Assembly (NCBI GenBank): GCA_043228905.1
Contig: JBHGNT010000418.1
Coordinates: 1-26,946 of the forward strand
Length of the DNA stretch: 26,946 nt
Reading direction: 5' to 3'
Source: Azolla caroliniana
Lineage: Eukaryota; Plantae; Polypodiophyta
Part shown: positions 452-26,219 of the stretch, one piece after another
How positions within the stretch are numbered: the first letter of the stretch is position 1
Layout: the number at the start of each line of letters is the position of its first letter
The notes under the pieces: model-generated
Databases searched by the model: none
Seen by the model: only the letters and a program-made list of their open reading frames with translations
Told to the model about the DNA's origin: nothing
Made by a program: the position numbers and the translations under genes

Positions 452-1178
452 TGTCGTGCCTTTCGGCGCCAGATCGTTGCGTGAGTCGGGTGGGAACCGC
501 TGGGGTTTTGGACTAGGAAGAGGAGAGTTTTAAGGCTAATAAGAATATAAATATGTTGTAAGAAAGAGTTATAGCAAACTCGTGAATTCCACGAGTGTAT
601 TGTATTAGATTAATCAATATGAATATAAGAATATAAACTTCGGTTGAAAGAGAATGATATAGAATTCTCGTGAATCCCACGAGTATAGTTTATTAATTGG
701 TGTTTTAGGAAATATATCCAATTTCCCAAATATTTTTCACACACAATTACATTGTGCTTCCCATCCTTATGTAGTGATGAGGAAGTCTTAGTAATCCATG
801 CTTTTTCTCTAACTATAGACCCCATGCTTTTCCTATAGATAGACTATATGCTTTATCTAAAGTGATCATGCTTTTTCTAACTTGTGCGTTTTTTATCATG
901 CACGCTAGATGTGTATGTGTAGCTTTTTCTTTTGTTATGCGTTTTTCTAATGTTTATCCTAGCGTGAATTTACCTTTCTATGTGGGACATCTATGCTTTA
1001 ACACTAATGAAATGCTAGTGTAATGGTAAGACATTACATTATTAACATGGAGGTGCAAGGTTCGAATCTTGCCCTATGCATGTTCCATTTATTTTGCTAT
1101 TTTCTTCTATTTCTTCATTTTTTATTGAATCTAATACTATATACGTTTTTCACGTAGTGTACAAAATACACTACGACA
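452..1178 (-). repeat. 3' LTR of the gag-only element (727 bp)
   Basis: TGTCGT/ACGACA termini, block homology to 3238-3985, adjacent to the PPT. Confidence 0.9.
1016..1069 (+). promoter_or_regulatory. tRNA-like Pol III internal promoter (A box and B box), antisense to the element
   Basis: TAGTGTAATGG at 1016-1026 and GGTTCGAATCT at 1059-1069; box starts 43 nt apart. Confidence 0.6.
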
Positions 1179-1190
1179 CTCACCCCCTCC
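1179..1190 (-). other. Polypurine tract
   Basis: GGAGGGGGTGAG immediately before the 3' LTR; overlaps the ORF stop codon. Confidence 0.8.
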
Positions 1191-3198
1191 AAACCCGCAC
1201 ATCCTCCGGTATGTGCCGAAGTTGTTGGTGTTTGTTAGTCTCCTCCGTCCGGTCTCTACCCGATTGGTTTCGTTGCCGGCTCGTAGTACCCTCGACTTCT
1301 CTTGTTATGTTGACTTTGTCTCTCCATTTGGAGCACATCCATTCTTTCCACCCGAACCATTGTCGACATCCGATCCACCATAGTCTTCGTTCGCTTTTTG
1401 CATGGCCCGCTTGGTCCTTGTCATCCACGGTAGTATCTTTTCTTGCCCTCTTTCTTTTCTTCATCAATCTCGACTTCTTTTCGGATTTTCGGTTTAGTCG
1501 GATTAGCTTACTTCCGATTCGGTCTCGTCGGATCGTCTTTCGTTTAGTTCGGCTTCCTTTCCGATTTGTATTCGGTCGATCCGGACTCGGTTGATCGGTT
1601 TTTACCGATTCAGTGCTCTTTCGGGTCGGTTTCTTTTCTTTTCTTTTCGTCCGGATTTGCTTTCTTTTCTTCGTTTTCACCTGCCTTGTCCGGTTCGACT
1701 TTCGGCACTTCTTTCCGTTGTTCGCCACGTAGGTCCTCCGATATGTGCTCGTTGTTCGGTCCTCGTGTGGTTGTAATGCATGCTTCTTTTCTCGCCGTAG
1801 CGCGTGCTTCTTTATTCGCCATAACACGCGTTTCTTTATTCGCCGTAGAGCGTGCTCTGTATTACGCGCTTCTCCCGTCGTAGACCCGACCTCCGCATTG
1901 TCGCACTTTCTTTTAGATTGGAATTTCGGATGGATCATTTTCCATCCGAACCGACTTCCGACTTTACCTTCCTCGCCGCCATCTCCCGTCTCTCCGGTCT
2001 CACGTTGGTTCTCGGACACAACCGCCGAAGTCTCTAGATATTGTTGGCATGAATCCTCGGTATTACCTTCTTTCGTAGTTTCACCCTTAGCATTCTTCTC
2101 GGCTATCTCTTCATCGTATTCGTCGGCTTCGACATTCGTTTTCTCTCCGCCACCTTCCGTCTCTTCGGTCTCACGTTGCCTTTCGATCGCAACCGCCGGA
2201 GTCTCTGGAATCAGTGGTGGGGAAGTCTCGATATGGCAATCCGCCATTGATTCGTCCATAGCCACCTCCGATTCGATTTCGTCTTTTGTGGCTACCTCCT
2301 TAATCACATCCGCTTCACACTCTTTATCTGCATCAATTATGCAAACATCTATTATGCTTACCCCTTTTTGACCCGATGTCTCGGGCACTTGTATCCCGAA
2401 ATTTCCTTCTATACTTGAATTATCGGCCTTATCCTTCGCCATCGTTCTTTCACAAGACAAGAGGGTAGCTTGTTTTACACCCTCTTCCGTCGCACCATCA
2501 TGTTGTATTTCGGCCTTCATATCGGCTCCATCGTTTGTCTTCAATCGACCATCCTTCATCGGCCATGTTGTTGACAAGATTCTCATCTTCCTCTCATCAT
2601 GTCTCCGGCATACCCTTTGGACTTCGGCCCAATCTTCGGTAAGACCATTCGCACCGTCATCGTCTTCGAGTTCAATCCCGATGTCCTTCCTTTCTTTCCG
2701 ATCAATCGATCTTACGAACATTAGGACTTTGTCCTCTCCCACCAATCGTTGTTCTCGCTCCGAGAGTCGAGCAAAACGATGCTCGAACTCTAGGAACGCT
2801 TGCGTTGCACTTCGGTGAGTCTTCTCCGACGCCACCCATTCGTCGAATTCTCGTCGATCTCGTCCCGTCCATCTCTCATAGTCATATGCCTCCCGTAAAG
2901 CTTCTTCAAAGGACTCCCATGTCGAGTTTTGTTGTTGTATCTTGTGGATTCTCTCTTGTAGTTCGTCCGAGGCCACCCGACTAAAGGATATCACTTGCAA
3001 TCCTTCCGGTATCCGATATTGCATCATCTCCGCCTTATATTCACGTAGGTAGCGTGACACACCCTTACCGTTGAATTCCCCGTTTCGTCGCAGAAGCCGC
3101 TCTACTGCCGCCTTCATCTCCGACATCGCACATTGTTCTTGTTGCATCCGCTCAAACATTATCATCATCATGTTCATCGCCTCTTGTTGATTCTCCAT
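1180..3198 (-). CDS. gag: Gag-like protein (672 aa from first ATG) with an acidic middle and a K/R-rich tail
   Basis: Uninterrupted ORF filling the space from PBS to PPT. The N-terminal ~210 aa look helical and capsid-like (FNGKGVSRYLREY...TWESFEEALREAY). The gag call rests on position and remembered resemblance. The GTG start at 3219 in the ORF track lies inside the PBS. Confidence 0.7.
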   Translation of the reverse strand: MENQQEAMNMMMIMFERMQQEQCAMSEMKAAVERLLRRNGEFNGKGVSRYLREYKAEMMQYRIPEGLQVISFSRVASDELQERIHKIQQQNSTWESFEEALREAYDYERWTGRDRREFDEWVASEKTHRSATQAFLEFEHRFARLSEREQRLVGEDKVLMFVRSIDRKERKDIGIELEDDDGANGLTEDWAEVQRVCRRHDERKMRILSTTWPMKDGRLKTNDGADMKAEIQHDGATEEGVKQATLLSCERTMAKDKADNSSIEGNFGIQVPETSGQKGVSIIDVCIIDADKECEADVIKEVATKDEIESEVAMDESMADCHIETSPPLIPETPAVAIERQRETEETEGGGEKTNVEADEYDEEIAEKNAKGETTKEGNTEDSCQQYLETSAVVSENQRETGETGDGGEEGKVGSRFGWKMIHPKFQSKRKCDNAEVGSTTGEARNTEHALRRIKKRVLWRIKKHALRREKKHALQPHEDRTTSTYRRTYVANNGKKCRKSNRTRQVKTKKRKQIRTKRKEKKPTRKSTESVKTDQPSPDRPNTNRKGSRTKRKTIRRDRIGSKLIRLNRKSEKKSRLMKKRKRARKDTTVDDKDQAGHAKSERRLWWIGCRQWFGWKEWMCSKWRDKVNITREVEGTTSRQRNQSGRDRTEETNKHQQLRHIPEDVRVWRG

Positions 3199-3214
3199 CT
3201 CCTTGCCACCCGTC

Positions 3215-3232
3215 TTCACGTCGGGTTCACCA
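3215..3232 (-). other. Primer-binding site, tRNA-Trp
   Basis: TGGTGAACCCGACGTGAA, 5 nt inside the LTR; complementary to the plant cytosolic tRNA-Trp 3' end (TTCACGTCGGGTTCA-CCA, from memory). Confidence 0.85.
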
Positions 3233-3237
3233 ACTTG

Positions 3238-3985
3238 TGTCGTGCCTTTCGGCTCCGGATCGTTGCGTGAGTCGGGTGGGAACCACCGGGGTTTTGGACT
3301 AGGAGGAGGAAGAATTTGAGACTATTATAATTATGAGTAGATTATTAGAAACTTGTGAATCCCACAAGTATAATGTATTTTATTGATTAATATTTATGTA
3401 AGAATATGTATTTAGATTGATAGAGAAAGATATAGAAATCTCGTGAATCCCACGAGTATAGTTTGTTAATTGGTGTTTTAGGAAATATATCCAATTTCCC
3501 AAATATTTCACACACTATTACATTGTGCTCCCCATCCTTATGTAGTGATGGGAGAGACTAAGCATAGCTACATGCTTTTTTTCTAATATGTTCATGCACA
3601 CTAAATGTGCATGTGATGCTTTTCTAATCCTTGCTTTTATTTGCTAAATATAGTGCTCATGCACGCTAGATGTGCACGAGTCACTTTTTAGTTGCTTGCG
3701 TTTTTTTTCTATAAAATATTCACACACTCTAAAAATGCACGATTTACCTTTTAATAAAGGTAGGCGCAAATAAAGCACTTATAGTTATTAAATCTATTTA
3801 TAGAACACTAAAGATAAGGTAGCATAATGGTAAAGTTGAGGTTTGGCTATGTGGAGGTACAGGGTTCGAATCCTGCCCTATGCACGTGATAAATATCTTG
3901 ATATATTATTTTATTTATTTATATGTAATTAAATCAGTTATATTATTTTTACTTTTTCACGTAGTGTACGAAATACACTACGACA
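3238..3985 (-). repeat. 5' LTR of the gag-only element (748 bp)
   Basis: Same termini as 452-1178; followed on the minus strand by the PBS. Confidence 0.9.
3820..3873 (+). promoter_or_regulatory. tRNA-like A box and B box, antisense to the element
   Basis: TAGCATAATGG at 3820-3830 and GGTTCGAATCC at 3863-3873; 43 nt spacing. Confidence 0.65.
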
Positions 3986-5404
3986 CCGTAACCGAGGAAT
4001 ATGCATGGCCGGGTCTTTGGATCCAACTTTCCTCTCCGGTCCTTAGCAACATGCACGTACGCGAGACACCCGAATACCTTCAGATGCCGGTAGGACACTT
4101 CCTTACCGGTCCAGACTCTCTACGGTGTGTCTCCATCCAAGGGCACTGAGGGTGATTTGTTTATCACATACGTCGCTGTCGATAGCGCCTCAACCCAAAA
4201 TGTCTTGGGTAATTTTGCATGCGCCAGCATACTCTGGACCCTTTCCATTATGGTCTGGTTCATCCTCTCGGCCAACCCATTTAGTTCCGATGTCTTCGGC
4301 ACGGTAAATTCGAGCGGGATTCCCTTCGAGCTACAGTACTCCTCAAACTGCCCCCGATATTCACCTCCATTATTTGCTCAAACCGCCTTCAGCTTTCGGC
4401 CGGTTTCTCTTTCCACTCTTGCGTGGAGCTCTTTGAAGACGGATAACACCTGATCTTTCGTCTTCAACAGTGTGGCCCACAGCTTCCGGCTATGGTCATG
4501 TATGAATGTCACGAAGTACTGCGATCCGGCATGTGACTTCGTGTCCACTTGACATACATCAGTATGCACCAACTCTAGTGGTGCATTACATCTCATTGGT
4601 GGCCTGGATCGGAAGGAGGTCCGGTTTTGTTTACCGGCCAGACAATCAATGCACTTCTCCAAGTGCACGTTCTTCACTGGAATGAGGTTGTCGTCTGCAA
4701 GCCTCTTCATCCCCTTCTCGCTCATGTGACATAACCTCTTGTGCCACAGCTCACCGGCAGTGTCGGAAGCCATGTTCACTTCTTCCGGGCATAAACGGGC
4801 ATTCATCAGGTAGAACGTGTTTACCATCCAGGCCCGAGCCACAATCAGGCTCCCTTTGCTGAACTTCATAACACCGTTCTGGATGCTACCCGTGTAGCCT
4901 TCATTATCTAGCCGACCGGTTGATATCGGGTTCAGACGAACCTCTGGAACTTGTTAGACATCCTTCAGCAACAGCTTGCATCCGGTTGGTGTTGTCAACC
5001 ATACGTCTCCTATGCCGACAATTCGGCATGTACCTTCATTCCCCATCCAGACACAGCCGTGATCACCGGTTGAGTAGGATGAGAAGCATTTCCGGTCCGG
5101 GGTAAGGTGGAACGACGCTCCGGAGTCGACCACCCAGGTCATCTCGTCGCCGGCAAGGTTTAGCTCACTCTTGTCGGTGATGAGCATCAACTCTTCTTCA
5201 CTTGCCGCGATTGCCGTCGTTCCCTTCTGGTCCACTCCCCTCCGGTCTTTACCAGTCTGGTCCGGTGTCCGCTTTGAATCGGTACCATCGATTTCCTTGT
5301 CTTTTCGGAAGTGCCGACAGTTCTTCTGGAAGTGTCCCGGCTTGCCACAATAGAAGCAAGTAGGCCTTCCCCTTGACTTTGACCGTGTCCCCGACTTTTC
5401 CCGG
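3986..5404 (-). pseudogene. Copia zinc knuckle, protease and integrase (stops and frameshifts)
   Basis: ORF pieces 4954-5404, 4378-4869 and 4120-4302 (NGLAERMNQTIMERVQSML, FWVEALSTATYVINKSPS). Confidence 0.92.
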
Positions 5405-6261
5405 TGTCGTGAAGAATTTCGGCCAGAGGCGGAAACCGGGAAATATTGGCTACATCGACGGGGTGCAACATGTACAGTCACCCTTGTACATTTAGTGTGA
5501 ATAGTAGGAGTCAAGTTGGGACAGAGAATCCCATGTAAGTCGGGATTTATCCCACATTGTAGCGCATCTCCCTCCTTGTTCTATAAAAGGAAGGGAGCGC
5601 CTCTTGTGAGAGGGTTGCCCATTTTTGAGTCGTAAGAGTATACCATTTTGTGCTTCGTTTCTAGGGTTAGTGACATTCTTTCCTTTTTTTTTCTTCTGCC
5701 CCTTCTCCTTCTCGAGAACTCAAGCGGCAGCTATGGCGGGAAAGCTATTAGGTTAACTCTTCTTCTTCTGTGAGTAGCCGGCTCGCGGCCAGGGTTGTAT
5801 CTCTCCTTGTTGTAGGTTGCTTCTGCTCAGCCACCTGTGCAAGACCCCGCTCGGCGCGATGAGCCCGAAAGCTCCCCGACAACGGCTTGGCGGCAGACTG
5901 CCGTTGCGACCTAGTCTACCTTAGTTCGAGTCGGAGTAGGAGTTGTAACTCACTCTTGTAATCATATATATATATATACAGGGTTGTGCATATTTGTGTC
6001 TCTATCGGTGTCGGGTGCTTTCCCTTCCCAGTGTTTCCTGTACATAGAGGTGTGGGTTGTGTCGGTGTTGCGCACGTGTTCTCTCCCTCTCTTCCTCTCT
6101 CGCGTTTGGTAGCCACCGGTATGCGTCCAGAATCGCTCCGCTTCGCACCACCACCAGTGTAGCCGGGATTGGAGAGAAGTCGGCTTCCTACGCTCCGTCC
6201 TCCCTAGTCCAAGACCCCCGTGGTCCCGCCCTTCTATACGCACGCGCGTAACATCGCGACA
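5405..6261 (+). mobile_element. Solo LTR (857 bp) with 4-bp TSD CCGG
   Basis: TGTCGTGA...TCGCGACA ends; CCGG at 5401-5404 and 6262-6265; excision restores gag SPQNREKSGTRSKSR in frame; TATAAAA near 5582. Confidence 0.88.
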
Positions 6262-6913
6262 CCGGTTTTGGGGACTACGGTTCCTTTGTCTTCCGCATTC
6301 CGATTCGGTAAGGAGCGCTTTGGAGTTGGAGCTCGTATCCTTATCTTTCCGATGCGCCTCCTCATCTAGCAAGCTCAACTTCACTCGTGCTAGGGATAAC
6401 CGTTTCCCTTCAGGCCCGGCGTTGCCCAAAGTGACAACCAACGTCTCCCAGCTATCTGGGAGGGAACTGAGCAGGAGTAGTGCTAGTACCTCATCGGCGA
6501 GAGGTACTTCCAATGATGTTGCCTGGTGGATCAGCCCCTGGAAGGCATTCATGTGCTCTGCCATGCTGGAGCCATCTTGGTACCGAAGTCTTACTAGCTT
6601 CCGAAATACCGAAACTTGATTAACAACATTTTTGTTTTTGAAACATAATGCCGATCTTCTCCCAGAGCTCATGAGCCTTGCTCTCTTCATTGAAGTTGTT
6701 GTATAGACTCATGTCGATGAAGCACCGTATGAACGTCGTTGTCTTCATGTGCATCACCTCCCATATCGTGGCGTCGATTTTGTCTGGTCTCTTGTCCCCG
6801 AACTGAACCAACAACCAAAGATCTTTAACCATGAGCATGTCCCTCATCTTTGACTTCCACACCGAATAGTTAGAGCCGGTGAGCTTGAACATGCCTCCCA
6901 ACGAATCGTCCAT
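6262..6913 (-). pseudogene. gag: Copia gag, frameshifted near 6640
   Basis: MFKLTGSNYSVWKSKMRDML...; LALLLLSSLPDSWETLVVTL is typical of copia gag. Confidence 0.9.
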
Positions 6914-6929
6914 TTTTATGTGTCGTTTC

Positions 6930-6941
6930 GCTCTGATACCA
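6930..6941 (-). other. Primer-binding site, tRNA-iMet
   Basis: TGGTATCAGAGC, 3 nt inside the LTR. Confidence 0.92.
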
Positions 6942-6944
6942 CTT

Positions 6945-7625
6945 TGACAATAACTACGTGCTCTCTAAACACAACGCTCGGCCACAACCGAGTCTAGGAT
7001 CAAACACAGAAAACGGGTAAGGTACGCACGACACAATGAAGAGAAGAGTACACATGATGTTAACGTGGAAAACCCAAACGTGGGAAAAACCACAGCAGCC
7101 CACAGACTGCAAACTTTCACTATATCACAATGTACAATAGTAAAGCACCGAGGCAACGACCTCGAGCTTGCTATGTTCCTCACAGGTGGCGGTTACAATA
7201 GAGGCAACGACCTCTTCCTCTCTCTCTCTCTCTCTCTCTGTACATAATTACGCACAGAGTCTTGCACCAACAAGAATGAATACAATACTCTCTACACTAA
7301 GTTTTCCCTAAGTCATATTTATATTAATATGACTTTTCGGCTATTTACAAATATAGCCCCAATGGACTCTCAGAAACATATTTACGAATATGTCCCTTCA
7401 TCCGGTGAGCACTCCTCACCGGGCCTGCATCATTCGGCTCTTGCCAAGCACTCGTGATCTGGTTCTCACCGGGCCTTCACCATCCGGCTCTTGCCGGGTC
7501 CTTGTCATCCGGTTCTCACCGGGTCTTCTGTTGCTGGGTACTCCACATCCAGATTCAGCCTCAGCCGAGTTGCTCATCAACATTGTTCTTCTCACTTCCC
7601 ATCCGGAGGGACCTGTTTCCTAACA
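6945..7625 (-). repeat. 5' LTR of the Tnt1/Tork-like copia
   Basis: TGTTAGG...TGTCA on the minus strand; the outer end coincides with the abrupt start of host RT homology at 7626. The partner LTR is outside the window. Confidence 0.75.
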
Positions 7626-10009: not shown

Positions 10010-10280
10010 TGTTGAGATACAAGCTGAACATTGGGTGTGTAAACCAATGCGTAGACTGGGTGCGTAACTAAAGGCTGTATCGGTGCGTAAACCAAGAGGC
10101 CATTGGATAGATATTTGGCGGAGGAATATATTTTGGGAGTTAGTGTAGGGACTCATTGATGAGCATTGAAGTATGAGTCAGTACTTCTGTCAATCCGTAT
10201 GGAATTCTATAAAAGTGCTTGTACGCACTCTTGAATTAAGTGATAGTGCACTTCGATATGCTTTGTGCGTGCGTTCAACA
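10010..10280 (+). repeat. 3' LTR (271 bp) of the plus-strand copia
   Basis: Follows the PPT; TGTTGA...TCAACA; the RNase H of the host element is cut at 10281. Confidence 0.85.
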
Positions 10281-12774: not shown

Positions 12775-12775
12775 T

Positions 12776-12819
<44 letters not shown>

Positions 12820-13841
12820 GGAGGGAAACATTGTATGTAGAGTAAAATGGATTACAAGAGTAGGCAATAGAGTGCTACAAAATGGCGTTTAACCAATTTA
12901 AGTTTGGGATGATTGATAGATCCCTATTTATAAGTAATAGAGAACACTCTAGAATATTCTAGGTCATCCTAGAATGTAGAGTAATCTAGAAGGTTCTAGT
13001 GTATAGAACACTCTAGAATATTCTAGGTTATTCTAGACTGTAGAGTAATATTGAATATTCCTATGATATTAGAGTATATATTCTAAAACCTATACATATA
13101 AGAATATCAATACAATGGTTAAGGATTTGACATGTGTACAACAAGATCGTGGGGTCAAATCCTTTCGAAGCATGATGTGATCGTGAATGTCATCACTATT
13201 CCCCTTCTTCGACAACACATCTCACGAGTCGTAGGGTTTGTATAAGGACCATGTTTATGAGGATATTAGCGATGAAATGCAGTGACCATTTTCGCAACAT
13301 TGGAAAGATTTGCGGCAGGTTCTCAAGTTCGATAATTGGGGGTATACAGCTTGTTGCACACGATTTTAGAATCGAGAATGGTACCAAACCTCAAATTCGG
13401 GTCCATCCAAGAAGTCAACAGGTGGTGGGGGTGTTGTAAGAAGGAGTGGAATTGAACTTGTAGTATAAAGTTTCAAAAGGGATACATGAAATACCGGATG
13501 AAGACGCATGTGCGGAGGGAGGCCAAGACGAAATGCAACATCACTTATCTGACCAATGATCATGTAAGGACAAAACGTTGGTAATCCAATTTACTACAAG
13601 GCCAAGTGGTTTTGATGTTGTGTTGGAGAAGCCATACATGATCCCCAACGCGGAACTGTTTTGAGGAATCTAGGCGACAAGCCTCTTGTGTGTAACTTGA
13701 GCATCATGCAAATTGTGTAGAATATTCCTATGATATTAGATTATATCTTCTAAAAACTATACATATAGGAATATTAATACAATGGCTAAGGATTTGACAT
13801 GTGTACAACAAGGTCATGGGTTCAAATCCTTTATCATGACA
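12775..13841 (-). mobile_element. Internally deleted Tcn1-like chromovirus (1067 bp), TSD CTTTC
   Basis: CTTTC at 12770-12774 and 13842-13846; ~120 bp of 5' LTR fused to the integrase C-terminus and chromodomain remnant ([21 protein letters not shown]); PPT 13196-13210; 3' LTR 12775-13195. Confidence 0.85.
12778..12826. repeat. (AG)n microsatellite in the LTR U5
   Basis: Seen directly. Confidence 0.9.
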
Positions 13842-15135: not shown

Positions 15136-15363
15136 TGTAAAGAATCGGGTATGATTCTTGGGCAGCAGAAGAGATGTGTGTTATGTGTTGTGCGGAGCCC
15201 ACGCCACTAGGCGGCGGCCTTACCCCCTAGTTCTCGATCGACATATGCAATCTTCGTACTATTTGGCTTGGGATAGAGCTCAAAATGAGACTCCCATCGG
15301 CCTAGCCACATGCAAATTGCTTCTTTGGTTTTTTCCTTTTTTTGTCCCGTAAATGGCTTTACG
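15136..15363 (-). repeat. Probable short 5' LTR of the minus-strand copia
   Basis: TGTAAAG at 15136 and an imperfect inverted end CTTTACG at 15357-15363. The outer boundary is uncertain. Confidence 0.55.
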
Positions 15364-15429
15364 ACAAATGATGGTTCACCCTCATGCTCATTCGGTCTAT
15401 TAGTATCACATTATAAACTAATGACACAT

Positions 15430-16086: not shown

Positions 16087-16269
16087 ACGTGCCCCAAGAG
16101 CACTATAAGATTGCCAAAGTTTGGACATCTAATGCGCGGTTGAATTAAGGAAATTTTGTATTTGTATCAAATATGACTCAATGGGGATTGGCCTAAGAGG
16201 ATTTCCTTGAATTCCTTCCGCTTGAGCAGATGACATCGGGTCATTATTATGAGCCATTCAATGATAAGT

Positions 16270-16600
16270 TTTGGCAAAGAAATAGGATAAAGTCAAACAA
16301 ATAGTCATAACATTATGTCATGACGTAAACATATCATGGCCAAACAATAATCAATATCATGATGCAACGTCAATACCCCTCTAGACGTATAAGATGAGGT
16401 TCAAGATCAGGTTACTATTGTAACACAAAGGTGTTTTAAAAACCATGGGGGTGACAAATGAATGTCTTTCCCTTATCTCTATATCGATTTTTTAATGGGG
16501 CTCCCTGAGGCTCAACCATGTATGTTTGCGTCATGAATAGTTTAAACATGGGAAAATGTTAACAATAAACTACGTCTTTGTGCCCACGCATGTGGTTTCG
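16270..16600 (+). pseudogene. Possible very old gypsy integrase remnant
   Basis: Fragments KQIVITLCHD and YIDFLMGLPEG..YVCVMNSL in different frames resemble the integrase Zn domain and core start. Confidence 0.3.
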
Positions 16601-16785
16601 GCTCTTTAAGTCCTATTACGAGGACCCAGAAGTGCACTTAGACCTAAAGTCTAAACATGTATTATAGGCATATGTATCAACAATGTTATATGGTCTTGGT
16701 AATATTTGAACTCGAGACCTTGAGAAGAAATGCATTAAACACTTGAGTGGCGTTGTGTCGTACCTGGTGCTGTCATGATATGGCA

Positions 16786-16840
16786 AGACTCGAACCCATG
16801 ACCTTAGGTTATATGGGTCGAGCTCTTGACCATTAGATCA
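16786..16840 (-). promoter_or_regulatory. tRNA-like A box and B box, antisense (copy at 22004-22058)
   Basis: TGATCTAATGG and GGTTCGAGTCT on the minus strand, 44 nt spacing, with AAGGTC in the variable-loop position. Confidence 0.6.
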
Positions 16841-16916
16841 TCTATTGTAATATGTAGGATATTATTTTCATTTACATTTTATTATAGGAAATTAGTGTAT
16901 ATTCCAGATTTCTCTG

Positions 16917-16934
16917 GAACATTCTAGAAGCTTC
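16917..16934. promoter_or_regulatory. Heat-shock element, four units
   Basis: GAAcaTTCtaGAAgcTTC, 20 bp upstream of the TATA box. Confidence 0.7.
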
Positions 16935-17209
16935 AGGATTACTCCTGAAAACACTATAAAAGAGGGCACTAGGCATTATATTGAACCAAATTGGTTCAAC
17001 GCCAGTGTTAAGCCTTTTTAGCCACCATTGTATATTCTCTTCATATAATACATATCTTTCTTATCATCATTCTCTCTCTCTCCCGATCTCTCTCTTTCTC
17101 TCCGTCTCGCTCACTTCTTCCTTCTCTCGAAGAAGTTCCACACCTCTCATAGTACTAATCCTTCGTTTAGTACTAATTCCTTCTCTGTCTCAGTACTGTT
17201 CTTGACAGT

Positions 17210-17221
17210 TTGAACCAATTT
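17210..17221 (+). other. Self-priming PBS (non-tRNA)
   Basis: TTGAACCAATTT is complementary to 16988-16999, about 30 nt downstream of the TATA box; there is no TGG-type tRNA PBS. Confidence 0.8.
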
Positions 17222-17282
17222 CTTCCTACCTTCTGTCTCTCTCATTTCCTACTAATCTTTTATTCCTCTTTTCTTTCATCCC

Positions 17283-18434
17283 ATGGCCACTGTTAGCGCT
17301 GAAGAATATCAATATGTTTTCTCGGAATTTCAATGCTTGAAGGAGAAGTTCCATGCTTTGGAACAAGAAAACCAACGGTTGCTGGGGGATCTTCAGCAAA
17401 TCTCCTTAGAAAAGCAGCAAACGCAACAACAGCATGGGGAACTTGCATTATGCGTGCAACAACTCGAAGCAACCATCGTAGCGATGCAACAACAAGGGCC
17501 CGGAACACAAGGGATTCATAAAGAACCCAAGATGGGTCTTCCCACGAAGTTCGATGGAACGCGATCGCAGTTTAGAGGGTTCCTTAACCAGGTACGATTA
17601 GTTATTCAAATGCATCCTTTCCGATATCCCACCGATGCATCACGAGTGGGTTTAGTAGGCACTTTGTTAAGTGGCTCAGCGTTGTCATGGTTCGCTCCAC
17701 TATTAGAAAAGGAATCTCCGTTACTCAACAATTTTGAAGAGTTTCTAGGTGAGTTTAAAGCATGTTTCGGAGATACTGACATCACCAGGACCGCAATCAA
17801 CAAAATCCGGCGATTAAGCCAAGGTGACCATCCAGCCTCCGCATACGCTGCAGATTTTCGCCTACTCGCCGCCGATATCCCTGGGGATGATCAAGCGTTG
17901 ATGGACAAATTCCGTTATGGTTTACGCAACGACCTCAAGGATTTACTCTTGACCTTCCCCGAAGAGCCAAAGTCCTTAACAGAAGCAATTAGTCGCGCGG
18001 TGAGATGTGACAACCATCTCTTTGAGCGACGTTCGGAACGACAGCTACAGATGCCGAGGGCAAGATCAGAGCCCACCTACGCCTCAGTGGTAGCAAGACC
18101 TTTTCCGAGGGAGTCATATAATGCGCCTCCAGCGAATACTCCGACTCCGATGGAGATTGACACTACACGTCGTCGAGGGCCATTATTTGAAGAAGAAAAG
18201 CAGCGACACCGTACAAATCGACTATGTCTTTATTGCGGTGGGCCAGGACATATCACAATAAATTGCCCCCATAGGCCAAGAAGACAGGTAAACCAAATAG
18301 TCGCTAGTTCTAATTGTACTAAACCCGAGCCTATTTCAGTAGGGATATCTGATAGTCCTAATAGTACTAATATCCCAGATCTAGCAAACAAATTTGATAT
18401 CCTTAGTCAGTTAGAAGAAGAGTTAAACGACTAA
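17283..18434 (+). CDS. gag: Gag (383 aa), PEG10/Ty3-like capsid with CCHC knuckle
   Basis: LPTKFDGTRSQFRGFLNQ, PTPMEID, CLYCGGPGHITINC; the ORF is intact. Confidence 0.95.
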   Translation: MATVSAEEYQYVFSEFQCLKEKFHALEQENQRLLGDLQQISLEKQQTQQQHGELALCVQQLEATIVAMQQQGPGTQGIHKEPKMGLPTKFDGTRSQFRGFLNQVRLVIQMHPFRYPTDASRVGLVGTLLSGSALSWFAPLLEKESPLLNNFEEFLGEFKACFGDTDITRTAINKIRRLSQGDHPASAYAADFRLLAADIPGDDQALMDKFRYGLRNDLKDLLLTFPEEPKSLTEAISRAVRCDNHLFERRSERQLQMPRARSEPTYASVVARPFPRESYNAPPANTPTPMEIDTTRRRGPLFEEEKQRHRTNRLCLYCGGPGHITINCPHRPRRQVNQIVASSNCTKPEPISVGISDSPNSTNIPDLANKFDILSQLEEELND

Positions 18435-18474
18435 GTCCAGCCAAAATAGGAGCCGTTTGGTTGGACAGCCCTAG
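18422..18474 (+). promoter_or_regulatory. -1 ribosomal frameshift signal
   Basis: G TTA AAC, a 6-nt spacer, and an 11-bp stem (18435-18445 with 18456-18466); pol lies in the -1 frame and is open across the site. Confidence 0.8.
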
Positions 18475-21400
18475 ATCTGTGCAACCCATTAGTGGTTCCA
18501 TTCCCTCTAAGCAAGTTAGTGATGTGTTCGTAGCGCAAGTAATAGTTAGTACTAAAAGTACCCCTCCAGTACATGTCCTAGCACTCCTAGATTCCGGAGC
18601 TAACTCTTGCTTTATGGATAAGAAATTTGCTCAAGCTCATAAGATATCCCTAAGAAAACTCCAGTGTTTAGCCTCTGTAATAGTCATTGATGGACGTCCC
18701 ATTGCTTCCGGAAATATCATAGAAGAGTCAGAGCCCATTAATATTGTCTTAGATAACTTAGCATGTGTAGTATCATTTAATATTATTAGTATCCCAGAAC
18801 ATCCTATAGTTTTAGGATTACCGTGGTTCGAGTTACATAACCCAGACATAGATTGGAGAACAAGAGAAATCCAGTGTCGACAAACCCAAGGGTCAACTCA
18901 GAAGATGGCAACCATTTCGCTACGTCAGTTGCGTAAAGAAGGGCGCAAGGAGGAAATGTTCCTCTTTGCAATATCAGTAAACCCCTCCAGCACCACTAAA
19001 GAAGAATCCACCATTCAACTTCCCGAGAAGTATCGTCATTACGCCGATGTGTTCGATAAAGTACAAGCCAACACACTTCCTGATCATCGACCGTACGATT
19101 GCCCCATCTATTTACAACCGGGAAAAGAGCCGCCATGGGGACCGATCTACAATTTGTCACCAACCGAGCTAGAAGTCCTTCGGGCCTATATAGAGGAGAA
19201 TTTGGAAAATGGTTTCATTCGGCATTCGAAATCTCTAGCCGGCGCGCCCATTTTCTTCGTCAAGAAAAAGGATGGATCACTTCGTCTCGTTGTAGATTAC
19301 CGTGGCTTGAATAAGGTTACAATCAAGAATAGGTATGCTCTTCCCCTTATCTCAAGTCTTTTAGAACGGATCAATGGTGCCAGGTTCTTCACGAAGATCG
19401 ACTTACGGGGAGCATATAACCTCGTACGGATCCGACTAGGAGACGAATGGAAGACCGCGTTTCGCACCAGATATGGGCACTTCGAGTATACGGTCATGCG
19501 GTTCGGCCTCACTAATGCGTCGGCAGTCTTCCAACACATGGCTAATGATATATTCCGAGATCTATTGGATGATTGTTTGATCATCTATTTGGATGATCTA
19601 CTGGTTTATTCAAAGACCCAAGAAGAACATGATTCTCATGTACTATTAGTACTAAAACGACTTCGAGAACATGGTCTGTATGCAAAGCTGGAAAAATTTA
19701 GTTTTGGGTGCAACCAAGTGGAATTTCTCGGTTACATCATTTCGTCAGAAGGCATCTCCATGGACCCAGCTAAGGTCAAAACGGTGGTAGAATGGCAGAC
19801 TCCGCGTTCGGTGCGGGATGTGCAATGCTTCTTAGGGTTTGCCAATTTTTACCAGAAGTTCATACAAGATTACTCAAAGATCGTTCTACCTCTCACACAA
19901 CTTACCAGGAAGGGACAATCGTTCATCTGGTCTGAAGAAACGGACATGGCTTTCAAGAGTCTTAAAAAAGCATTTACATCGGCTCCAATTCTAGCTCATG
20001 TCGATCCGGAAAAACCATTCATTATCGAAGTTGACGCATCGGATTTTGCATTGGGGAGAATTCTGTCACAACAGGGGAATGATGAGAAGCTACATCCTGT
20101 GGCTTTTCACTCACGCAAGTTTGACGCCGCCGAAATCAACTACGAAATTCATGATAAGGAGCTATTGGTAATAGTGGATTCTTTTATGCAATGGAGGCAT
20201 TTTCTGGAGGGATCCTCACATCCAGTCACCGTATTTAGTGACCACAAGAATCTTGCCTACTTTCAGGATGCTCGTGTGTTGAATCGACGTCAAGCTCGGT
20301 GGGCCCACTTCCTCACGCGTTTCGACTTCAAAATTACATATCGTCCGGGGAGGCACCAAGGGAAGGTAGATGCATTATCACGGCGTTCGTATCTAGCACC
20401 CCGTCCTGGAGAGCCAGCTTTCGATAACAAAAAACAAGTCATCTTGGGACCGGCATGACTACAAGCAACACAGATCTTTGACATGCCTATGGATTCCCGC
20501 GTTATCGATACCATACGTGAAAACTTGAAGACAGATGCGTTCGCCCAAGCTATACTAGCACAAATTGATCCCTCTCGAGCGTCGTGTTCACAGTCGCAAC
20601 CACCAGGTACGGACTATCGGCAATTCAAATACCATGATGGATTACTCTTCTTTAAAGAACTTTTGCATGTTCCTAATGGTTCTTGCCGCCTTCGAGCAAT
20701 ACAAAACTGCCATGACACATATATAGCTGGGCATTTTGGTAGTACTAAAACATTACATTTAGTACAACGAACATTCTGGTGGCCCTGTATGCGACAATTT
20801 GTCGAGGATTTTGTTCGGACTTGTGATACATGTTGCAGAACAAAAATGCCAAGGCATCATCCATATGGTTTATTAGAACCATTACCAATTCCAATGAAGC
20901 CGTGGCAATCCATTGCTCTAGACTTCATCACAGATCTTCCAGTCTCTAAGGGGTCGATCGATATACGAAGATGGCTCATTTCTTGCCATGTACTAAGGAG
21001 ATCTCCAGTGAAGACACTGCCGAAATTGTCATGCGTGAAGTATGTCGGCATCATGGACTTCCCGATAGTATCATCAGCGACCGTGGACCCCAGTTCGTGT
21101 CAAAATTCTAGAAGCACCTTTTTAACATGCTCAAGGTTACTTGTAACCTCTCCTCCGGCTACCACCCACAAACCGACGACCAAGCTGAACGAACAAATCA
21201 AACGCTGGAGCAGTATCTGCGGTGCTTTCTCAGTTATCATCAAGATGACTGGGCAGATATTCTCCACTTCGCCGAATTTGCCTATAACAACTCTATCCAC
21301 GCATCCACTAAAGTTACGCCATTTTATGCTTATACGGGATGTCACCCCCGGTGGAGTGTACTTGAAACCCCAGAGGTGTCCCCAAATCCGTGCGCGGAGG

Positions 21401-21996
21401 ATCGTTTGGAGCAGTTACGCAAGATACAAGCGGATTTATCTACTCATCTCCAACAAGCTCAACAAACACACAAGGTCTACGCGGATCGTCATCGACTTCC
21501 ATCCAGTTTTAATATTGGAGATCGGGTGTGGCTGCTACGACGACACATCAAGACTACTCGTCCATGTGAGAAGTTAGATTATCGGTGATTAGGTCCTTTC
21601 CGTATTATTGGACAGATTAATGATGTCGCTTTTCGTCTCGATCTACCTCCTCAACTTCGGATACATCCGGTGTTTCATAGTTCTCTCCTCGAACCCTACC
21701 ACGAGAGCACCATCCCAGGACGTCTTATCCAACCTCCACCCCCGATCGAGCTTGAAGATGGGCTGGAGTACGAGGTTGCCGTCATCCTTGATTCCAAGAT
21801 TGTTCGCAACAAGCTCTACTATCTAGTCGATTGGCTAGGCTATAGCCCCATCGAACGTACTTGGGAACCGATCGAGAATGTGACCAATGCTCGTGCTCTT
21901 CTTGAAGACTTCCATCGTCAATATCCACACAAACTAGGTCCTCAATCCAAGATGACTCGTGACACTCGTCATTTTAAAGGGGGGATAGTGTCATAA
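18428..21996 (+). pseudogene. pol: Pol: protease, RT, RNase H, integrase, chromodomain; disrupted
   Basis: [59 protein letters not shown]. Stops at 20456, ~21109 and 21586, and a frameshifting deletion near 20953. Confidence 0.95.
21976..21988 (+). other. Polypurine tract
   Basis: AAAGGGGGGATAG before the 3' LTR. Confidence 0.9.
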
Positions 21997-22425
21997 TATG
22001 GCAAGACTCGAACCCATGACCTTAGGTTATATGGGTCGAGCTCTTGACCATTAGATCATCTATTGTAATACGTAGGATATTATTTTCATTTACATTTTAT
22101 TACAGGAAATTAGTGTATATTCCAGATTTCTCTGGAACATTCTAGAAGCTTCAAGATTACTCCTGAAAACACTATAAAAGAGGGCACTAGGCATTATATT
22201 GAACCAAATTGGTTCAACGCCAGTCTTAAGCCTTTTTAGCCACCATTGTATATTCTCTTCATATAATACATATCTTTCTTATCATCACACTCTCTCTCTC
22301 CCGATCTCTCTCTTTCTCTCCGTCTCGCTCACTTCTTCCTTCTCTCGAAGAAGTTCCACACCTCTCATAGTACTAATCCTTCGTTTAGTACTAATTCCTT
22401 CTCTGTCTCAGTACTGTTCCTGACA
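21989..22425 (+). repeat. 3' LTR
   Basis: Near-identical to 16771-17207. Confidence 0.97.
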
Positions 22426-22705
22426 GGTGCTAGCGCACTCATTACAAGAGTTGACCCACCACAATGTCAGAGTCTCGACGTAGTTGATTCCGTCTCAAAT
22501 GAAGGTAGCTAGGCCTCATATTCATAGCCAGACCTAAGGCCCCCAAGCAAGTTCACACTTGGCCTAATTGGTTGTCTCAATCCTGAGGATTAAAAGCAAT
22601 CCTTCCCTTCTTTACACTCTCGTTTAACCCTCACACTTTATCCACGTGTATAGAATACTACGGTAAATTCTCACCGCGGGATATTATATGGTCATGCCCG
22701 TAACA

Positions 22706-23320
22706 TCCACTACTCGTCGGCTCATCATCCGACTAGTTACATTTCGACTCAGTGGCTCATTCAACCCGTTCAACCGAAATGAGATCAGAATCTTGTCTAA
22801 AGTACCGAACTCTTCTTCGTCTTACTCTGCCTAGATTATGTCAGGCTCAGTGGCCTCATCCTCAAGAGTCAGATGGTCGGAGTTATCAGACTCGGAGTCG
22901 GTAAGCAGTACCATGATGCCAACTCATCGAAATCAACATCTTGGCTCACTCGAACTTTTTTTGTCCGGCGGTTCTAACACTTATACCCCTTCTATTCATG
23001 TGAGTAATTGACCAGTATGCATTTCTCCGACTTTGGCTCCAACTTCCTCCTCTTCTCATCGAGCACATGCACATAGGCAATGTTGTCGAATATACTCAGG
23101 TGTCGTAAATTCGGCTGCTGACACCTTCTAACCAATCCGATTTTGGATGTAGACGGTCGTCCGAACTGCATCGGCCCAGTAGAACTTGGGATGCTCTTCT
23201 CCTCCAACATTGCCCATGTCGCTTCTACAACCGATTGATTTTTCCTCTCGGCTACGCTGTTTTGCTTCGGCATATATCTGTAGGTAAATTCTCTCCGAAT
23301 TCCCTTCTGATGCAAATGAT
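22706..23320 (-). pseudogene. Copia integrase fragment
   Basis: PKQNSVAERKNQSVVEA, FYWADAVRTTVYIQNR, RRKLEPKSEKCILV. Confidence 0.85.
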
Positions 23321-23583
23321 TGTTGAATTGAAGCTACTAGAATACACACAGAGAGCGGTAGAGGCAGAGAGAGTGGCAGAGGTAGAGAGAGAAGAACAAT
23401 AAACCTTCTTTCAAAAATATCACTCTTTGTACATACAATGTGCTTAGTGAGCTTCATGTCAAACGATGTTGCTAGTTAGGACTTCACACGACCGATTTCC
23501 TCTGGGTCGGCGCCGACGATGACTAAATCATCAACATAAAGTAAAAGACTTATCGGCCCATTGCGACCTTGTCGGATGAAAAG
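23321..23583 (-). mobile_element. Copia RT fragment fused to the 3' part of an LTR
   Basis: LFIRQGRNGPISLLLYVDDLVIVGAD..IGRVKS (23452-23583) closely matches 7750-7880; a CT-rich segment ends TTCAACA at 23321. Confidence 0.7.
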
Positions 23584-24725
23584 TGTGTTTACTCTGGGTA
23601 GGACATAGCCACAAACACAGGGGGTGTCCATTCCGAACACTTCACCAAAGGTTGGTTAAGGGAATGATGTTATCCAGCACGGATTCGATTCCAATCCAGG
23701 TATTCTGCGGATACTCTCCGGATGATTAATCACAACCGATTAATGAAAACACGTTGTCGTGTGGTTTTTCACACACAATATGAAAACTAGTATAATAATT
23801 ATTTAAGATTAGCTGAATGTATTCATATAGATAGGTGTCTTCAAGAGTTTCATAGCGTATTTTACTACGCATGAAACGGATAAACAAGTATCAAGCTATG
23901 TGAGTGTGAAGTTTGAAGAAGAAGAAAGAAAAGACAAAACTGTGAGATATCCCACATAGATAGGACAACATTGGAACCCATGATATGTAAGGGAAACCAA
24001 AACATATTCATTTTATCAATGTGTGGAACACAGAATGTTCAAGGTGACTTGGGCTACATTGTGTGGTGTGCACGCTTTGGGCATATGCGCGTATGCACGA
24101 CCATGATTACGCTTCGGGCATATGCGCGTATGTGCGTATGCACGGTCGTGTTAACGCTTCGGGCGTATGCACGTATGTGAATGTGCATGGCCACGTGGAC
24201 GTCTTCGGATGTACGTGCATGTGCAAGTTTCGGGCATATGCATGCACAGTCGCGTGGACGTTTCGGACGAGCACGCGGATGCGTACATGGTGCGGTCAGG
24301 ACGCGCGCAAGCGTGGATGCGTACATTGCAGCGCAGTCGGGACTTTTGCGTGCGGACGCGTCTACGGTTTGGTTGCGACACACGTACGGATTGCGCACGG
24401 GCTAAACTTTATGGATGATTGGGTCATTTGGATGCGCGCGAATGCGTACACGGTGCGGTCAGGACGCGCGCAAGCGTGGATGCGTACATTGCAGCGCGGT
24501 TGAGACTTTTGCGTGCGAACGCTTCTACGGTTTGGTTGCGACACACGTACGGATTGTGCACGGGCTAAACTTTATGGATGATTGGGTCATTTGGATGCAT
24601 ACATTACAGCGCGGTCGGGACTTTTGCGTGCGGACGCGTCTACGGTTTGGTTGCGACACACGTACGGATTGCACATGGGCTAAACTTTATGGATGATTGG
24701 GTCATTTGGCCGAATTATACGGACA
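23584..24725. repeat. Probable ~1.1-kb LTR-like segment containing tandem arrays
   Basis: TGT...ACA-bounded non-coding block between two unrelated pol fragments; no TSD. Confidence 0.4.
24279..24709. repeat. Tandem array: a 115-bp core in three copies (periods 163 and 115 bp)
   Basis: GCTAAACTTTATGGATGATTGGGTCATTTGG starts at 24401, 24564 and 24679. Confidence 0.92.
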
Positions 24726-25717
24726 ATCGCATGCAACCAAAAGCCAAGTCATCCACCATAGGCCATATGGGTTGCTCCAACCACTTCCCATTCCCAACCG
24801 GCCTTGGGCATCAATTTCCATGGATTTCATCACTGACTTGCCTCTTGTCCACGGATATGACACGATGCTCGTCATGGTAGATTGTTTTACAAAGATGGCT
24901 CATTTTGCCCCTTGCGCAAAGACTATTTCAGCAGAAGCAACAACCGATCTATTTTTAAAGAATGTGGTGCAGCTTCATGGGTCCCCGGATGATGTCACCT
25001 CAGATCACGGACCCCAATTTTTCTCTCGTTTTTGGTAGCAGCTCCTTCAAACATTGGGCACAATAGTGAATTTGTCTTCGTCCTATCATCCTCAAACCGA
25101 TGGACAAACAGAGTGGGTGAACCAAATTCTTGAGCAATACCTTCGATGCTCACTTATCTACCAACAAGATGATTGGGTTGACCTCCTACCCTTGGCAGAG
25201 TGCACATATAATAATACGTTACATGGTTCAACTGGGGTCACCCCATTTTTCGCCAACTATGGTTTCCATCCTCGCTTCAGTATTTCCATCCCTGGCAACT
25301 CTGTCAACCCGTCAGTGAAAGGACGTGCTCTTATTTTAGCCGACATTCATCAAGACCTCTCCCTCGTACTCATCCTTGCAAGGGACCGGTATAAAGTGCA
25401 AGTTGATTGACATCATTCTGCTACACCCGCCTTTGCAGTTGGTGATCCAGTTTAGCTCTTACGTCGCCATGTCGATACTTACTTGACCTTGTGGAAAGTT
25501 GGATTACAAGAATTTGGGGCCTTTCCGCATCATTGAGTGTGTCCATCCCGTCACTTTCCGGTTGGAACTTCCTCCACATTTCCGGATTCATAATGTCTTC
25601 CATGCCTCTCTTCTCAAACCTTATCATCCATCCACTATTATTGGAAGACACTCTCCACCTCCACCTCCACCTCCAATTGAGCTTTCCACAAGTGAGGAGT
25701 ATGAGGTGGACAAGATT
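24726..25717 (+). pseudogene. Chromovirus integrase through the start of the chromodomain, degenerate
   Basis: [65 protein letters not shown]. Confidence 0.92.
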
Positions 25718-25785
25718 CTGAAGTTGTCGTCGATGCCAACGAGAATCCAAAATCTTGTCCACCTCATACTCCTCACCTGTGGAAA
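25683..25785. repeat. Inverted repeat, 35-bp arms with 1 mismatch and a 33-bp spacer
   Basis: 25683-25717 versus the reverse complement of 25751-25785. Confidence 0.92.
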
Positions 25786-25820
25786 TGGGGAGGCATCTTC
25801 GAAGATGAAGGTGAACAAAT

Positions 25821-26219
25821 TGTTAAGGACAAGTAGACGAGGCTCAATACTAAGAGAGTGAGAGAGAGATCATAGACAAGATAATAAGAAAGAGAGAGAG
25901 AAAGTAGTCAAGAGAACAAGAACTGAATTATGATTCCGTAACTGGTGTTGTTCACCTTGACTAAGGCCAAGGTGAACCCCTGTATTTACACATGTTTATG
26001 GGCTCCAAATGTAGCTCATTTTCATGCACAAGCTTCTAGAATGTTCTAGCTTTTGGAGCTTTCTAGAAGCTTCTAAAATCCTACATGTAGAATAGATAAT
26101 CTACAATAATCTAGTAAGGTAACATGATTATGTATTGGATGTATTGGTTAAAATATATCAATTAAATACAATAGGTGAAGATTTCGAATCATGACATGAT
26201 TGTTGTCATGTCCATGACA
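25821..26219 (-). repeat. 5' LTR of another Tcn1-like family, with self-priming site at 25808-25818
   Basis: TGTCATG...CTTAACA on the minus strand; HSE-like repeats, CT-rich U5, and 11-nt complementarity between 25808-25818 and 25948-25958. Confidence 0.75.

What the first reader, a model, noticed from the sequence alone, without database searches (positions are those of the whole stretch)
1016..26191. Antisense tRNA-like A-box/B-box module near the U3 end of LTRs from two different gypsy groups
Seen: A/B-box pairs with tRNA-like spacing (43-44 nt start to start), always antisense to the element and near the U3 outer end. They occur at 1016/1059 and 3820/3863 (tRNA-Trp-primed element), 16840/16796 and its 3' LTR copy, 13775/13819, 13108/13152 and a degenerate 26137/26181 (three chromovirus LTR families). 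The sequence between the boxes varies freely, while the spacing and a (G/A)AGGT variable-loop-like motif mostly persist. Established: A/B boxes recruit TFIIIC, tDNAs can act as chromatin barriers, and Cassandra elements carry a 5S-derived Pol III module in their LTRs. Inference: these LTRs may carry a tRNA-mimic Pol III promoter or TFIIIC insulator, either shielding the LTR in heterochromatin or making antisense RNA. I do not recall a description of this for these lineages, but have not searched the literature.
Basis: partly seen in the sequence, partly recalled or inferred. Interest (0 to 1): 0.85.

Follow-up and report, generated by a model that had tools for sequence, protein, structure and literature searches.

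The report
Backward tRNA-type promoter in moss retrotransposons
Two unrelated groups of jumping genes, likely from a moss, keep the two promoter boxes of a tRNA gene, facing outward, at the outer edge of their end-repeats while the rest of the tRNA shape has decayed; this likely draws in RNA polymerase III factors and would shield the element's own promoter from silencing, which has not been tested.

Summary
All seven A/B-box pairs are at the stated places (26137 is decayed and 1 nt off). The window has 6 pairs against a shuffle mean of 0.6. They lie antisense in U3 of three self-primed Tcn1-type chromoviruses and one Phygy-type element, so the host is likely a moss. In related chromoviruses the module is in 14 of 15 scored loci of the nearest clade, 3 of 7 of a neighbouring clade and 0 of 41 others. 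Across 16 representatives the boxes, a 42-45 spacing and AGGT at tRNA positions 44-47 persist, while the distance to the LTR end varies and the cloverleaf pairs no better than controls. Best reading: a selected tRNA-derived type 2 Pol III promoter read as DNA, likely acting as a boundary for the LTR (0.45). Binding, transcription and barrier activity are untested, and one conservation contrast (boxes against upstream U3) was not significant. Nearest published system: Helenus TRIMs, which are non-autonomous and sense-oriented in the LTRs seen. Ten literature searches found no report for these lineages. This scan earlier noted tRNA-type boxes in LTRs of likely fungal genomes.

The parts
452..3985 (-). 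Phygy-type non-chromovirus gypsy element, non-autonomous (gag-like ORF 1180-3321, no RT), inserted in a copia integrase; 4-bp target duplication CCGT (NCGN)
   Evidence: LTR pair, PBS, PPT; flanks; no Pfam hit on the ORF; Phygy = 4-bp NCGN TSD 100%, tRNA-Trp PBS 81%
3238..3985 (-). Phygy 5' LTR
   Evidence: 81% identical to the 3' LTR over 686 aligned columns
452..1178 (-). Phygy 3' LTR, preceded by a polypurine tract at 1183-1190
3216..3232 (-). Primer-binding site, 17 nt, read as tRNA-Trp (isotype recalled; fits Phygy)
3813..3884 (+). tRNA-length module in the Phygy 5' LTR: A box 3820, AGGTA 3855-3859, B box 3863-3873
   Evidence: aligns to all 71 positions of Rfam RF00005 at 14.2 bits, below the cut-off, acceptor stem broken
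1009..1080 (+). Module in the Phygy 3' LTR: A box 1016, AGGTG 1051-1055, B box 1059-1069
   Evidence: differs from the 5' copy at 12 of 18 inter-box positions but 1 of 18 box positions
16771..22425 (+). Tcn1-type chromovirus A: gag, protease-RT-RNaseH, interrupted integrase, chromodomain; 5-bp target duplication GGTGC; LTRs 16771-17207 and 21989-22425, 98% identical
16786..16840 (-). Module in the 5' LTR of A: A box from 16840, AGGTC 16804-16800, B box 16796-16786
22004..22058 (-). Module in the 3' LTR of A, pointing into the polypurine tract and integrase end
16917..16999 (+). Pol II side of LTR A: heat-shock-element-like repeat 16917-16934, TATA 16955-16960, self-priming target 16988-16999
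   Evidence: motif names recalled
17209..17220 (+). Self-priming site of A: 12 nt complementary to 16988-16999; no tRNA primer
   Evidence: self-priming predicted for Tcn1
12775..13841 (-). Deleted chromovirus B in a copia element, target duplication CTTTC; truncated 5' LTR from 13841, integrase end, 3' LTR from about 13195
   Evidence: integrase end groups with clade I
13775..13829 (+). Module in the 5' LTR of B (A box 13775, B box 13819)
13108..13162 (+). Module in the 3' LTR of B (A box 13108, B box 13152)
25821..26219 (-). Chromovirus C 5' LTR followed by an 11-nt self-priming site
   Evidence: 78% identical to the LTR of L042
26136..26191 (+). Decayed module in LTR C (A box 26136, B box 26181)
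   Evidence: clearer copy in L042

Best explanation
The module is a remnant, likely tRNA- or SINE-derived, that keeps both boxes of a type 2 RNA polymerase III promoter at the outer U3 edge, facing away from the element; it likely binds TFIIIC and TFIIIB and would act as a boundary that keeps flanking heterochromatin off the LTR's own Pol II promoter. Shown: position, orientation, tRNA geometry, conservation of the boxes across families, loss of the cloverleaf, and a Pol II promoter about 115 nt further in. Inferred from yeast and human work: TFIIIC binds the B box and the A box places TFIIIB on the A+T-rich stretch between the module and the Pol II promoter. Inferred and untested: the complex keeps that stretch open and blocks silencing from the flank, which would matter to chromoviruses that are thought to target heterochromatin. 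Also inferred: the outward orientation keeps Pol III from running through the Pol II promoter. I put about 0.7 on a working Pol III-type promoter and 0.45 on the boundary role.
For: Clade pattern: 14 of 15, 3 of 7 and 0 of 41 scored loci; on the sense strand 3 of 70 LTRs reach 4 mismatches and none does better. In 16 representatives: T8 16/16, A14 14/16, the GG 12/16 and 15/16, G53-T54-T55 16/16 each, C56 14, A58 15, C61 14, AGGT 16/14/16/16; mean top-base share 0.84 in the B box against 0.49 in the anticodon arm (boxes against arm p=3e-5). An unanchored MAFFT alignment gives the same invariants. Ten sister pairs: 33 of 180 box positions differ against 63 of 180 inter-box (p=5e-4). Spacing stays 42-45 while the B box sits 11-48 nt from the LTR start in scored Tcn1 loci and 109-112 nt in Phygy, so it is not part of the integrase end. 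Cloverleaf pairing 51.6% against 49.3% shuffled (62 of 500 as high); RNAalifold finds 0 pairs. In contigs of four runs each, the listed variants fall at free A-box positions or between the boxes and none in the B box; most copies of family A have the canonical G10 that the window copy lacks. Module-bearing loci include pol frames of 1,044-1,282 aa. In fission yeast a tDNA barrier needs the A box as well as TFIIIC (PMC2040200 passages).
Against: No binding, transcript or chromatin data. Boxes are not significantly more conserved than the aligned 40 nt upstream in sister pairs (33/180 against 94/392, p=0.16). G10 is kept in only 7 of 16. Yeast TFIIIC accepts 32-93 bp between boxes, so the narrow spacing and the near-invariant AGGT are not explained. 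The fission-yeast barrier is orientation-independent, so the fixed orientation needs an added assumption. The passages read in a plant barrier review give only yeast and animal examples for TFIIIC. The 16 representatives are related and were anchored on the boxes, so the p-values are not independent tests; searches show only 40 of 71 and 40 of 74 variant rows. Clade II has members without the module, and 20 of 83 loci could not be scored.
Confidence: 0.45

Rival explanations
1. The promoter works, but its product matters: Pol III makes an outward RNA, antisense to the polypurine tract and integrase end from the 3' LTR or into the flank from the 5' LTR, that tunes the element or its neighbours.
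For: Both boxes are kept; sites that bind TFIIIC without Pol III are described as B-box sites. Orientation is fixed in all copies. The Phygy copies have T-runs 22 and 35 nt after the B box.
Against: No conserved terminator: T4 within 60 nt in 9 of 16, T5 in 1 of 16. The sequence that would be transcribed between and after the boxes is not conserved and has no common fold.
Confidence: 0.2
2. The module acts in the genomic RNA: its sense strand is complementary to tRNA D, variable and T loops and pairs with a host tRNA to help strand transfer or dimerisation, as proposed for the tRNA-like sequence in HIV-1 U3-R and (recalled) the split primer site of Ty3.
For: Antisense orientation next to the polypurine tract is what this predicts. 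It would explain the narrow spacing and AGGT. Precedent seen only as a review sentence and a reference title (PMC6468702); the primary paper was not held and the Ty3 search gave 0 papers.
Against: The Tcn1 elements self-prime and have no tRNA primer. The two LTRs of the Trp-primed element differ inside the A box and across the inter-box. Positions 10-13 vary between families and position 12 within family A. Invariant sites are G and T positions where G-U wobble would allow change, while C56, A58 and C61 vary a little. The module matches the primer's own 3' end, read from the PBS, at only 7 of 14 positions (by eye).
Confidence: 0.15
3. A passenger: an old tRNA or SINE insertion inherited by one moss lineage of elements, looking conserved only because it lies near the LTR end.
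For: Individual copies decay (26136, L035, L023, L065). Boxes against upstream U3 not significant. A trace of the D stem remains (pair 11-24 kept in 15 of 16).
Against: Neutral decay would not spare the boxes while replacing the arm between them (12 of 18 against 1 of 18 within one Phygy element). The offset from the LTR end varies. The same arrangement stands in two gypsy lineages whose LTRs share no other similarity.
Confidence: 0.1
4. The bound TFIIIC or TFIIIB serves targeting: it positions the element or its cDNA in the nucleus, or makes the LTR a landing pad for Pol III-seeking elements.
For: Two earlier notes report such landing pads in likely gut-fungus LTRs (not checked here). TRE5-A targets TFIIIC/TFIIIB (search listing).
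Against: No insertion upstream of any module in the window; the break at about 13720 joins U3 to the element's own integrase. No cluster of loose ends upstream of the A box among the rows shown (24 of 249 and 24 of 358). A landing pad gives the carrier no clear benefit.
Confidence: 0.1

Closest known systems
Helenus (TRIMp3; Kojima 2024, PMC10886601; parts 1-5 of 6 of the text, figure legends and one supplement passage read)
   Same: tRNA-derived sequence inside LTRs, conserved around boxes A and B, not a functional tRNA; one family in a non-seed plant (Selaginella).
   Different: Helenus are TRIMs of 311-1,263 bp without proteins, thought to use the promoter for their own genomic RNA; the 3 whole LTRs seen carry it in sense. 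Here it is antisense, at the outer U3 edge, in protein-coding chromoviruses with their own Pol II promoter. The paper argues that autonomous partners must use Pol II, and notes without detail that other Repbase LTRs hold tRNA-like parts.
Cassandra and Ajax (5S-derived Pol III module in TRIM LTRs; as described in PMC10886601)
   Same: Small-RNA-gene promoter kept in both LTRs.
   Different: Type 1 (5S) promoter that drives the element's transcript, in non-autonomous elements.
tDNA heterochromatin barrier at fission-yeast centromere 1 (PMC2040200, passages) and ETC sites (PMC12409998, passages)
   Same: A and B boxes recruit TFIIIC and Pol III and stop heterochromatin spread; the proposed way of working here.
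   Different: Host chromosomal genes or fixed sites, not carried by a mobile element; orientation-independent; not shown in plants in the passages read.
tRNA-Lys3-like sequence in HIV-1 U3-R (title and one review sentence, PMC6468702) and the split primer site of Ty3 (recalled)
   Same: tRNA-related sequence near the 3' end of an LTR element's RNA.
   Different: There it pairs with the primer tRNA. Three of the four elements here belong to a self-priming group, and variation follows the promoter consensus.
Tcn1 chromoviruses and Phygy elements (Neumann 2019, PMC6317226, passages and two supplement rows; Novikova 2010, PMC2864245, passages)
   Same: The carriers fit these groups by structure.
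   Different: The passages read mention no Pol III boxes in their LTRs; 'polymerase III' does not occur in PMC2864245.

Membership tests
Type 2 Pol III promoter | A box and B box at a usable spacing | tested here: met
   spacing as in an intron-less tRNA; G10 in only 7 of 16
Type 2 Pol III promoter | TFIIIC/TFIIIB occupancy and Pol III initiation | not testable with these tools
   no ChIP data; only contigs could be laid
tRNA gene | Cloverleaf with four paired stems and a stable anticodon | tested here: not met
tRNA-derived SINE insertion | tRNA head plus body, tail and own target duplication | tested here: inconclusive
   head only; T-rich stretch after the Phygy copies; no shared body seen; no host SINE library to compare
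Helenus / TRIMp3 | tRNA-derived sequence with conserved A/B boxes in the LTR | tested here: met
Helenus / TRIMp3 | Short TRIM with no coding capacity | tested here: not met
   element A is 5.6 kb with gag-pol; relatives have pol frames above 1,000 aa; the Phygy element is 3.5 kb with an ORF
Helenus / TRIMp3 | Promoter oriented to make the genomic RNA | tested here: not met
   antisense in all copies; sense in the 3 whole Helenus LTRs seen
Cassandra / Ajax | 5S rRNA-derived A-IE-C promoter | tested here: not met
   no 5S hit in Rfam; boxes are of tRNA type
Tcn1 chromovirus (carriers A, B, C) | Gypsy domain order with a chromodomain and self-priming instead of a tRNA PBS | tested here: met
   for A; self-priming site for C; B only by its integrase end; cage residues Y, W, Y present by eye
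Tcn1 chromovirus (carriers A, B, C) | RT/integrase phylogeny with named Tcn1 references | not tested
   no named references were obtained; the tree has unnamed loci only
Phygy (carrier 452-3985) | 4-bp NCGN target duplication and tRNA-Trp PBS | tested here: met
Phygy (carrier 452-3985) | RT-based placement | not testable with these tools
   this copy has no RT; no linked locus found
tDNA-type chromatin barrier | Blocks heterochromatin spread in a reporter assay | not testable with these tools
   needs experiment

The most novel reading that the evidence does not exclude
Autonomous moss retrotransposons of two separate gypsy lineages each carry their own Pol III boundary element, a stripped tRNA promoter facing outward at the LTR edge, that lets heterochromatin-targeting elements stay active. 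It would be the first TFIIIC barrier in plants that my searches could point to, and a mobile one, present in many copies and possibly passed between lineages.
Probability: 0.35. Interest if true: 0.85.

Novelty: new variant of a known kind. Interest (0 to 1): 0.66.

Why it matters
Chromoviruses are thought to insert into silent chromatin, and how they stay expressible there is open. A selected, outward-facing Pol III promoter in U3 gives a specific, mutable candidate. Chromatin barriers in plants are poorly defined, and this offers a natural high-copy test of whether TFIIIC sites act as barriers in a plant. It also extends Pol III modules in LTRs from tiny non-autonomous TRIMs to protein-coding elements, in an orientation that cannot serve to make the genomic RNA.

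Tried and rejected
No host genome is held, so no genome-wide count. tRNA gene: rejected. Folded tRNA mimic: rejected for acceptor, anticodon and outer T stems; a weak D-stem signal remains (Watson-Crick 32 against 22.8, p=0.004; not significant for the whole structure). mis-anchored five rows (L006, L009, L022, L023, L009b); one search replaces it, and L023, L009b, L038 and L065 were left out of that alignment. Seven other stretches of the window taken as likely copia or other LTRs have no pair better than 4 mismatches. Pairing of the U3 module with the element's 5' region: longest perfect complements 7 and 8 nt. Search for a plant tRNA-Trp gene to test the pairing rival: 0 matches; 6 matches to the PBS, none a tRNA. 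Phygy relatives with DNA: none; 30 unnamed protein relatives. Expression: no RNA holder listed; the two runs guessed as RNA are contigs, one probably DNA, so they say nothing either way. A conserved upstream TATA position was not seen; the region is simply A+T-rich. Paper searches: (36, 52 and 63 returned 0). Most subscription papers are not in the library; only one passage of the Helenus supplement and two rows of the Neumann supplements were seen, and bioRxiv supplements are closed.
Full report
Setting. The window is a nest of LTR retrotransposons with no host gene seen. No genome is held. Four elements carry the module. One is a 3.5-kb element at 452-3985 (minus) with a 4-bp CCGT target duplication and a 17-nt primer site read as tRNA-Trp. 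These two features define the moss Phygy group in Neumann 2019 (4-bp NCGN in 100%, tRNA-Trp in 81%). Three are chromoviruses: A (16771-22425, LTRs 98% identical, gag-pol-chromodomain), B (12775-13841, internally deleted) and C (LTR 25821-26219). A and C have 12- and 11-nt self-priming sites, as predicted for the Tcn1 group of mosses and club-mosses. The host is therefore likely a moss. This is inferred; no named relative was obtained.

Observation. Six of seven sites match the recalled A+B consensus with 0-3 mismatches at spacing 43-44. The window holds 6 such pairs against 0.575 in shuffles (0 of 200 reach 6). The seventh (26136/26181) is decayed but homologous to a clearer copy in L042. All are antisense to the element. 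None is a tRNA gene. The best case, 3813-3884, aligns over the whole Rfam tRNA model at 14.2 bits against a cut-off of 29; L037 and 16765-16865 give no tRNA hit.

Relatives. A scan with the integrase-chromodomain end gave 83 loci (80 kept of 525 confirmed, 3), chosen without regard to the motif. An LTR start with at least 100 nt was found in 63; 20 could not be scored. I called a locus positive if at most 3% of 200 shuffles of its first 150 nt gave as good an antisense pair. On an integrase tree (85 of 86 rows; L037 too short and assigned by LTR and protein identity), positives were 14 of 15 in the clade holding A and B (support 0.97), 3 of 7 in a neighbouring clade (one, L038, doubtful at spacing 48) and 0 of 41 elsewhere. 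L011, unscored because its LTR start was missed, also has the module, and so does a second LTR in L014. On the sense strand only 3 of 70 LTRs reach 4 mismatches. Several carriers have pol frames above 1,000 aa, so the module is not confined to non-autonomous copies.

What is conserved. In 16 representatives numbered as tRNA: T8 16, A14 14, the D-loop GG 12 and 15, A44-G45-G46-T47 16/14/16/16, G53-T54-T55 16 each, C56 14, A58 15, C61 14; G10 only 7. Mean top-base share is 0.84 in the B box, 0.91 at 44-48, 0.69 over the A box, 0.49 in the anticodon arm, 0.52 upstream and 0.51 downstream. MAFFT without anchors gives the same invariants. Spacing is 42-45 (46 in L022), while the B box lies 11-48 nt from the LTR start in scored Tcn1 loci and 109-112 nt in Phygy. 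In ten sister pairs box positions differ in 33 of 180 and inter-box positions in 63 of 180 (p=5e-4), but the aligned upstream 40 nt differ in 94 of 392, which is not significantly more than the boxes (p=0.16). The rows are related and were anchored on the boxes, so these p-values overstate independence. Contigs from four public runs each were laid on the Phygy U3 and on LTR A. The variants shown (40 of 71 and 40 of 74 rows) fall between the boxes, in flanks or at A-box positions 10-13; none is in the B box or at 44-47. Most family A copies have G10 where the window copy has A.

What is not conserved. The cloverleaf pairs in 51.6% of cells against 49.3% shuffled (62 of 500 as high). Acceptor and anticodon stems are near 41%, and RNAalifold predicts no pair. 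Only D pair 11-24 stands out (15 of 16). No anticodon is kept (rows). A T4 run follows within 60 nt in 9 of 16 and T5 in 1 of 16.

Mechanism. Conservation of the promoter-critical bases with loss of the fold fits a site read as DNA. TFIIIC binds the B box tightly, and the A box helps place TFIIIB and the start site (PMC12409998 passages). In LTR A this would put TFIIIB on the A+T-rich stretch just inside the module, with a heat-shock-element-like repeat, a TATA box and the Pol II start further in: two promoters back to back, the Pol III one on the side of the flank. In fission yeast a tDNA with intact A box and TATA blocks heterochromatin (PMC2040200 passages). I therefore favour a boundary role (0.45). 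Unexplained under it: the narrow spacing (yeast TFIIIC accepts 32-93 bp), the near-invariant AGGT and the fixed orientation. Rivals: a functional outward RNA (0.2), pairing of the genomic RNA with a host tRNA as proposed for HIV-1 U3-R (0.15), a passenger (0.1), and targeting or a landing pad (0.1). No expression evidence could be obtained either way.

Comparison. Helenus TRIMs carry tRNA-derived A/B boxes in LTRs (PMC10886601) but are short and non-coding, and sense-oriented in the three whole LTRs seen. This module fails two of three Helenus features, so it is not filed there. Ten searches found no report for Tcn1 or Phygy LTRs; the library lacks most subscription papers, and Kojima notes other, undescribed Repbase LTRs with tRNA-like parts. 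Single passages of PMC3286476 (tRNA copies at a PBS) and bioRxiv 10.64898/2026.03.01.708851 (cites Helenus) were read and describe other things. Earlier notes of this scan describe tRNA-type boxes in LTRs of likely fungal genomes; none matched this sequence, and I did not check them.

Verdict. A real, lineage-wide and probably selected feature; a new variant of Pol III-promoter-bearing LTRs; function inferred. Interest 0.66.

Noticed in passing
window 16917-16934; LTR C nt 147 and 174; L001, L003, L004, L005, L037, L042: Heat-shock-element-like repeats (motif recalled) lie in U3 between the module and the TATA box in 5 of 11 clade I loci and 1 of 7 clade II loci with enough sequence, against 2 of 35 others. 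These elements may be heat-inducible.
   Followed up: partly
window 452-3985 and 12775-13841: Both insertions have matching target duplications but unlike LTRs (81% identity with a replaced inter-box; 92% with different outer ends). This suggests intermolecular strand transfer, conversion or recombination between subfamilies rather than age alone.
   Followed up: partly
loose end at 16843 (run X14); loose end at 3818 (runs X1, X2): A relative of chromovirus family A shows an A-box stretch like that of the Phygy 5' LTR, and a Phygy variant shows one like chromovirus B (1-2 contigs each). This is a weak hint of exchange or convergence between the lineages.
   Followed up: no
window 25683-25785: A 38-bp inverted repeat formed where two opposed chromodomain fragments join; it explains the sub-threshold miRNA hits.
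   Followed up: partly
window 3953-3985: The outer 33 nt of the Phygy LTR are shared by many contigs whose U3 then differs; whether those families carry a module is unknown.
   Followed up: no
window 24048-24711: G+C-rich tandem repeats with units of about 45 and 163 nt, next to a chromovirus integrase fragment.
   Followed up: no
L014:143-197: A further LTR with an antisense module whose A box is the most tRNA-like seen.
   Followed up: partly
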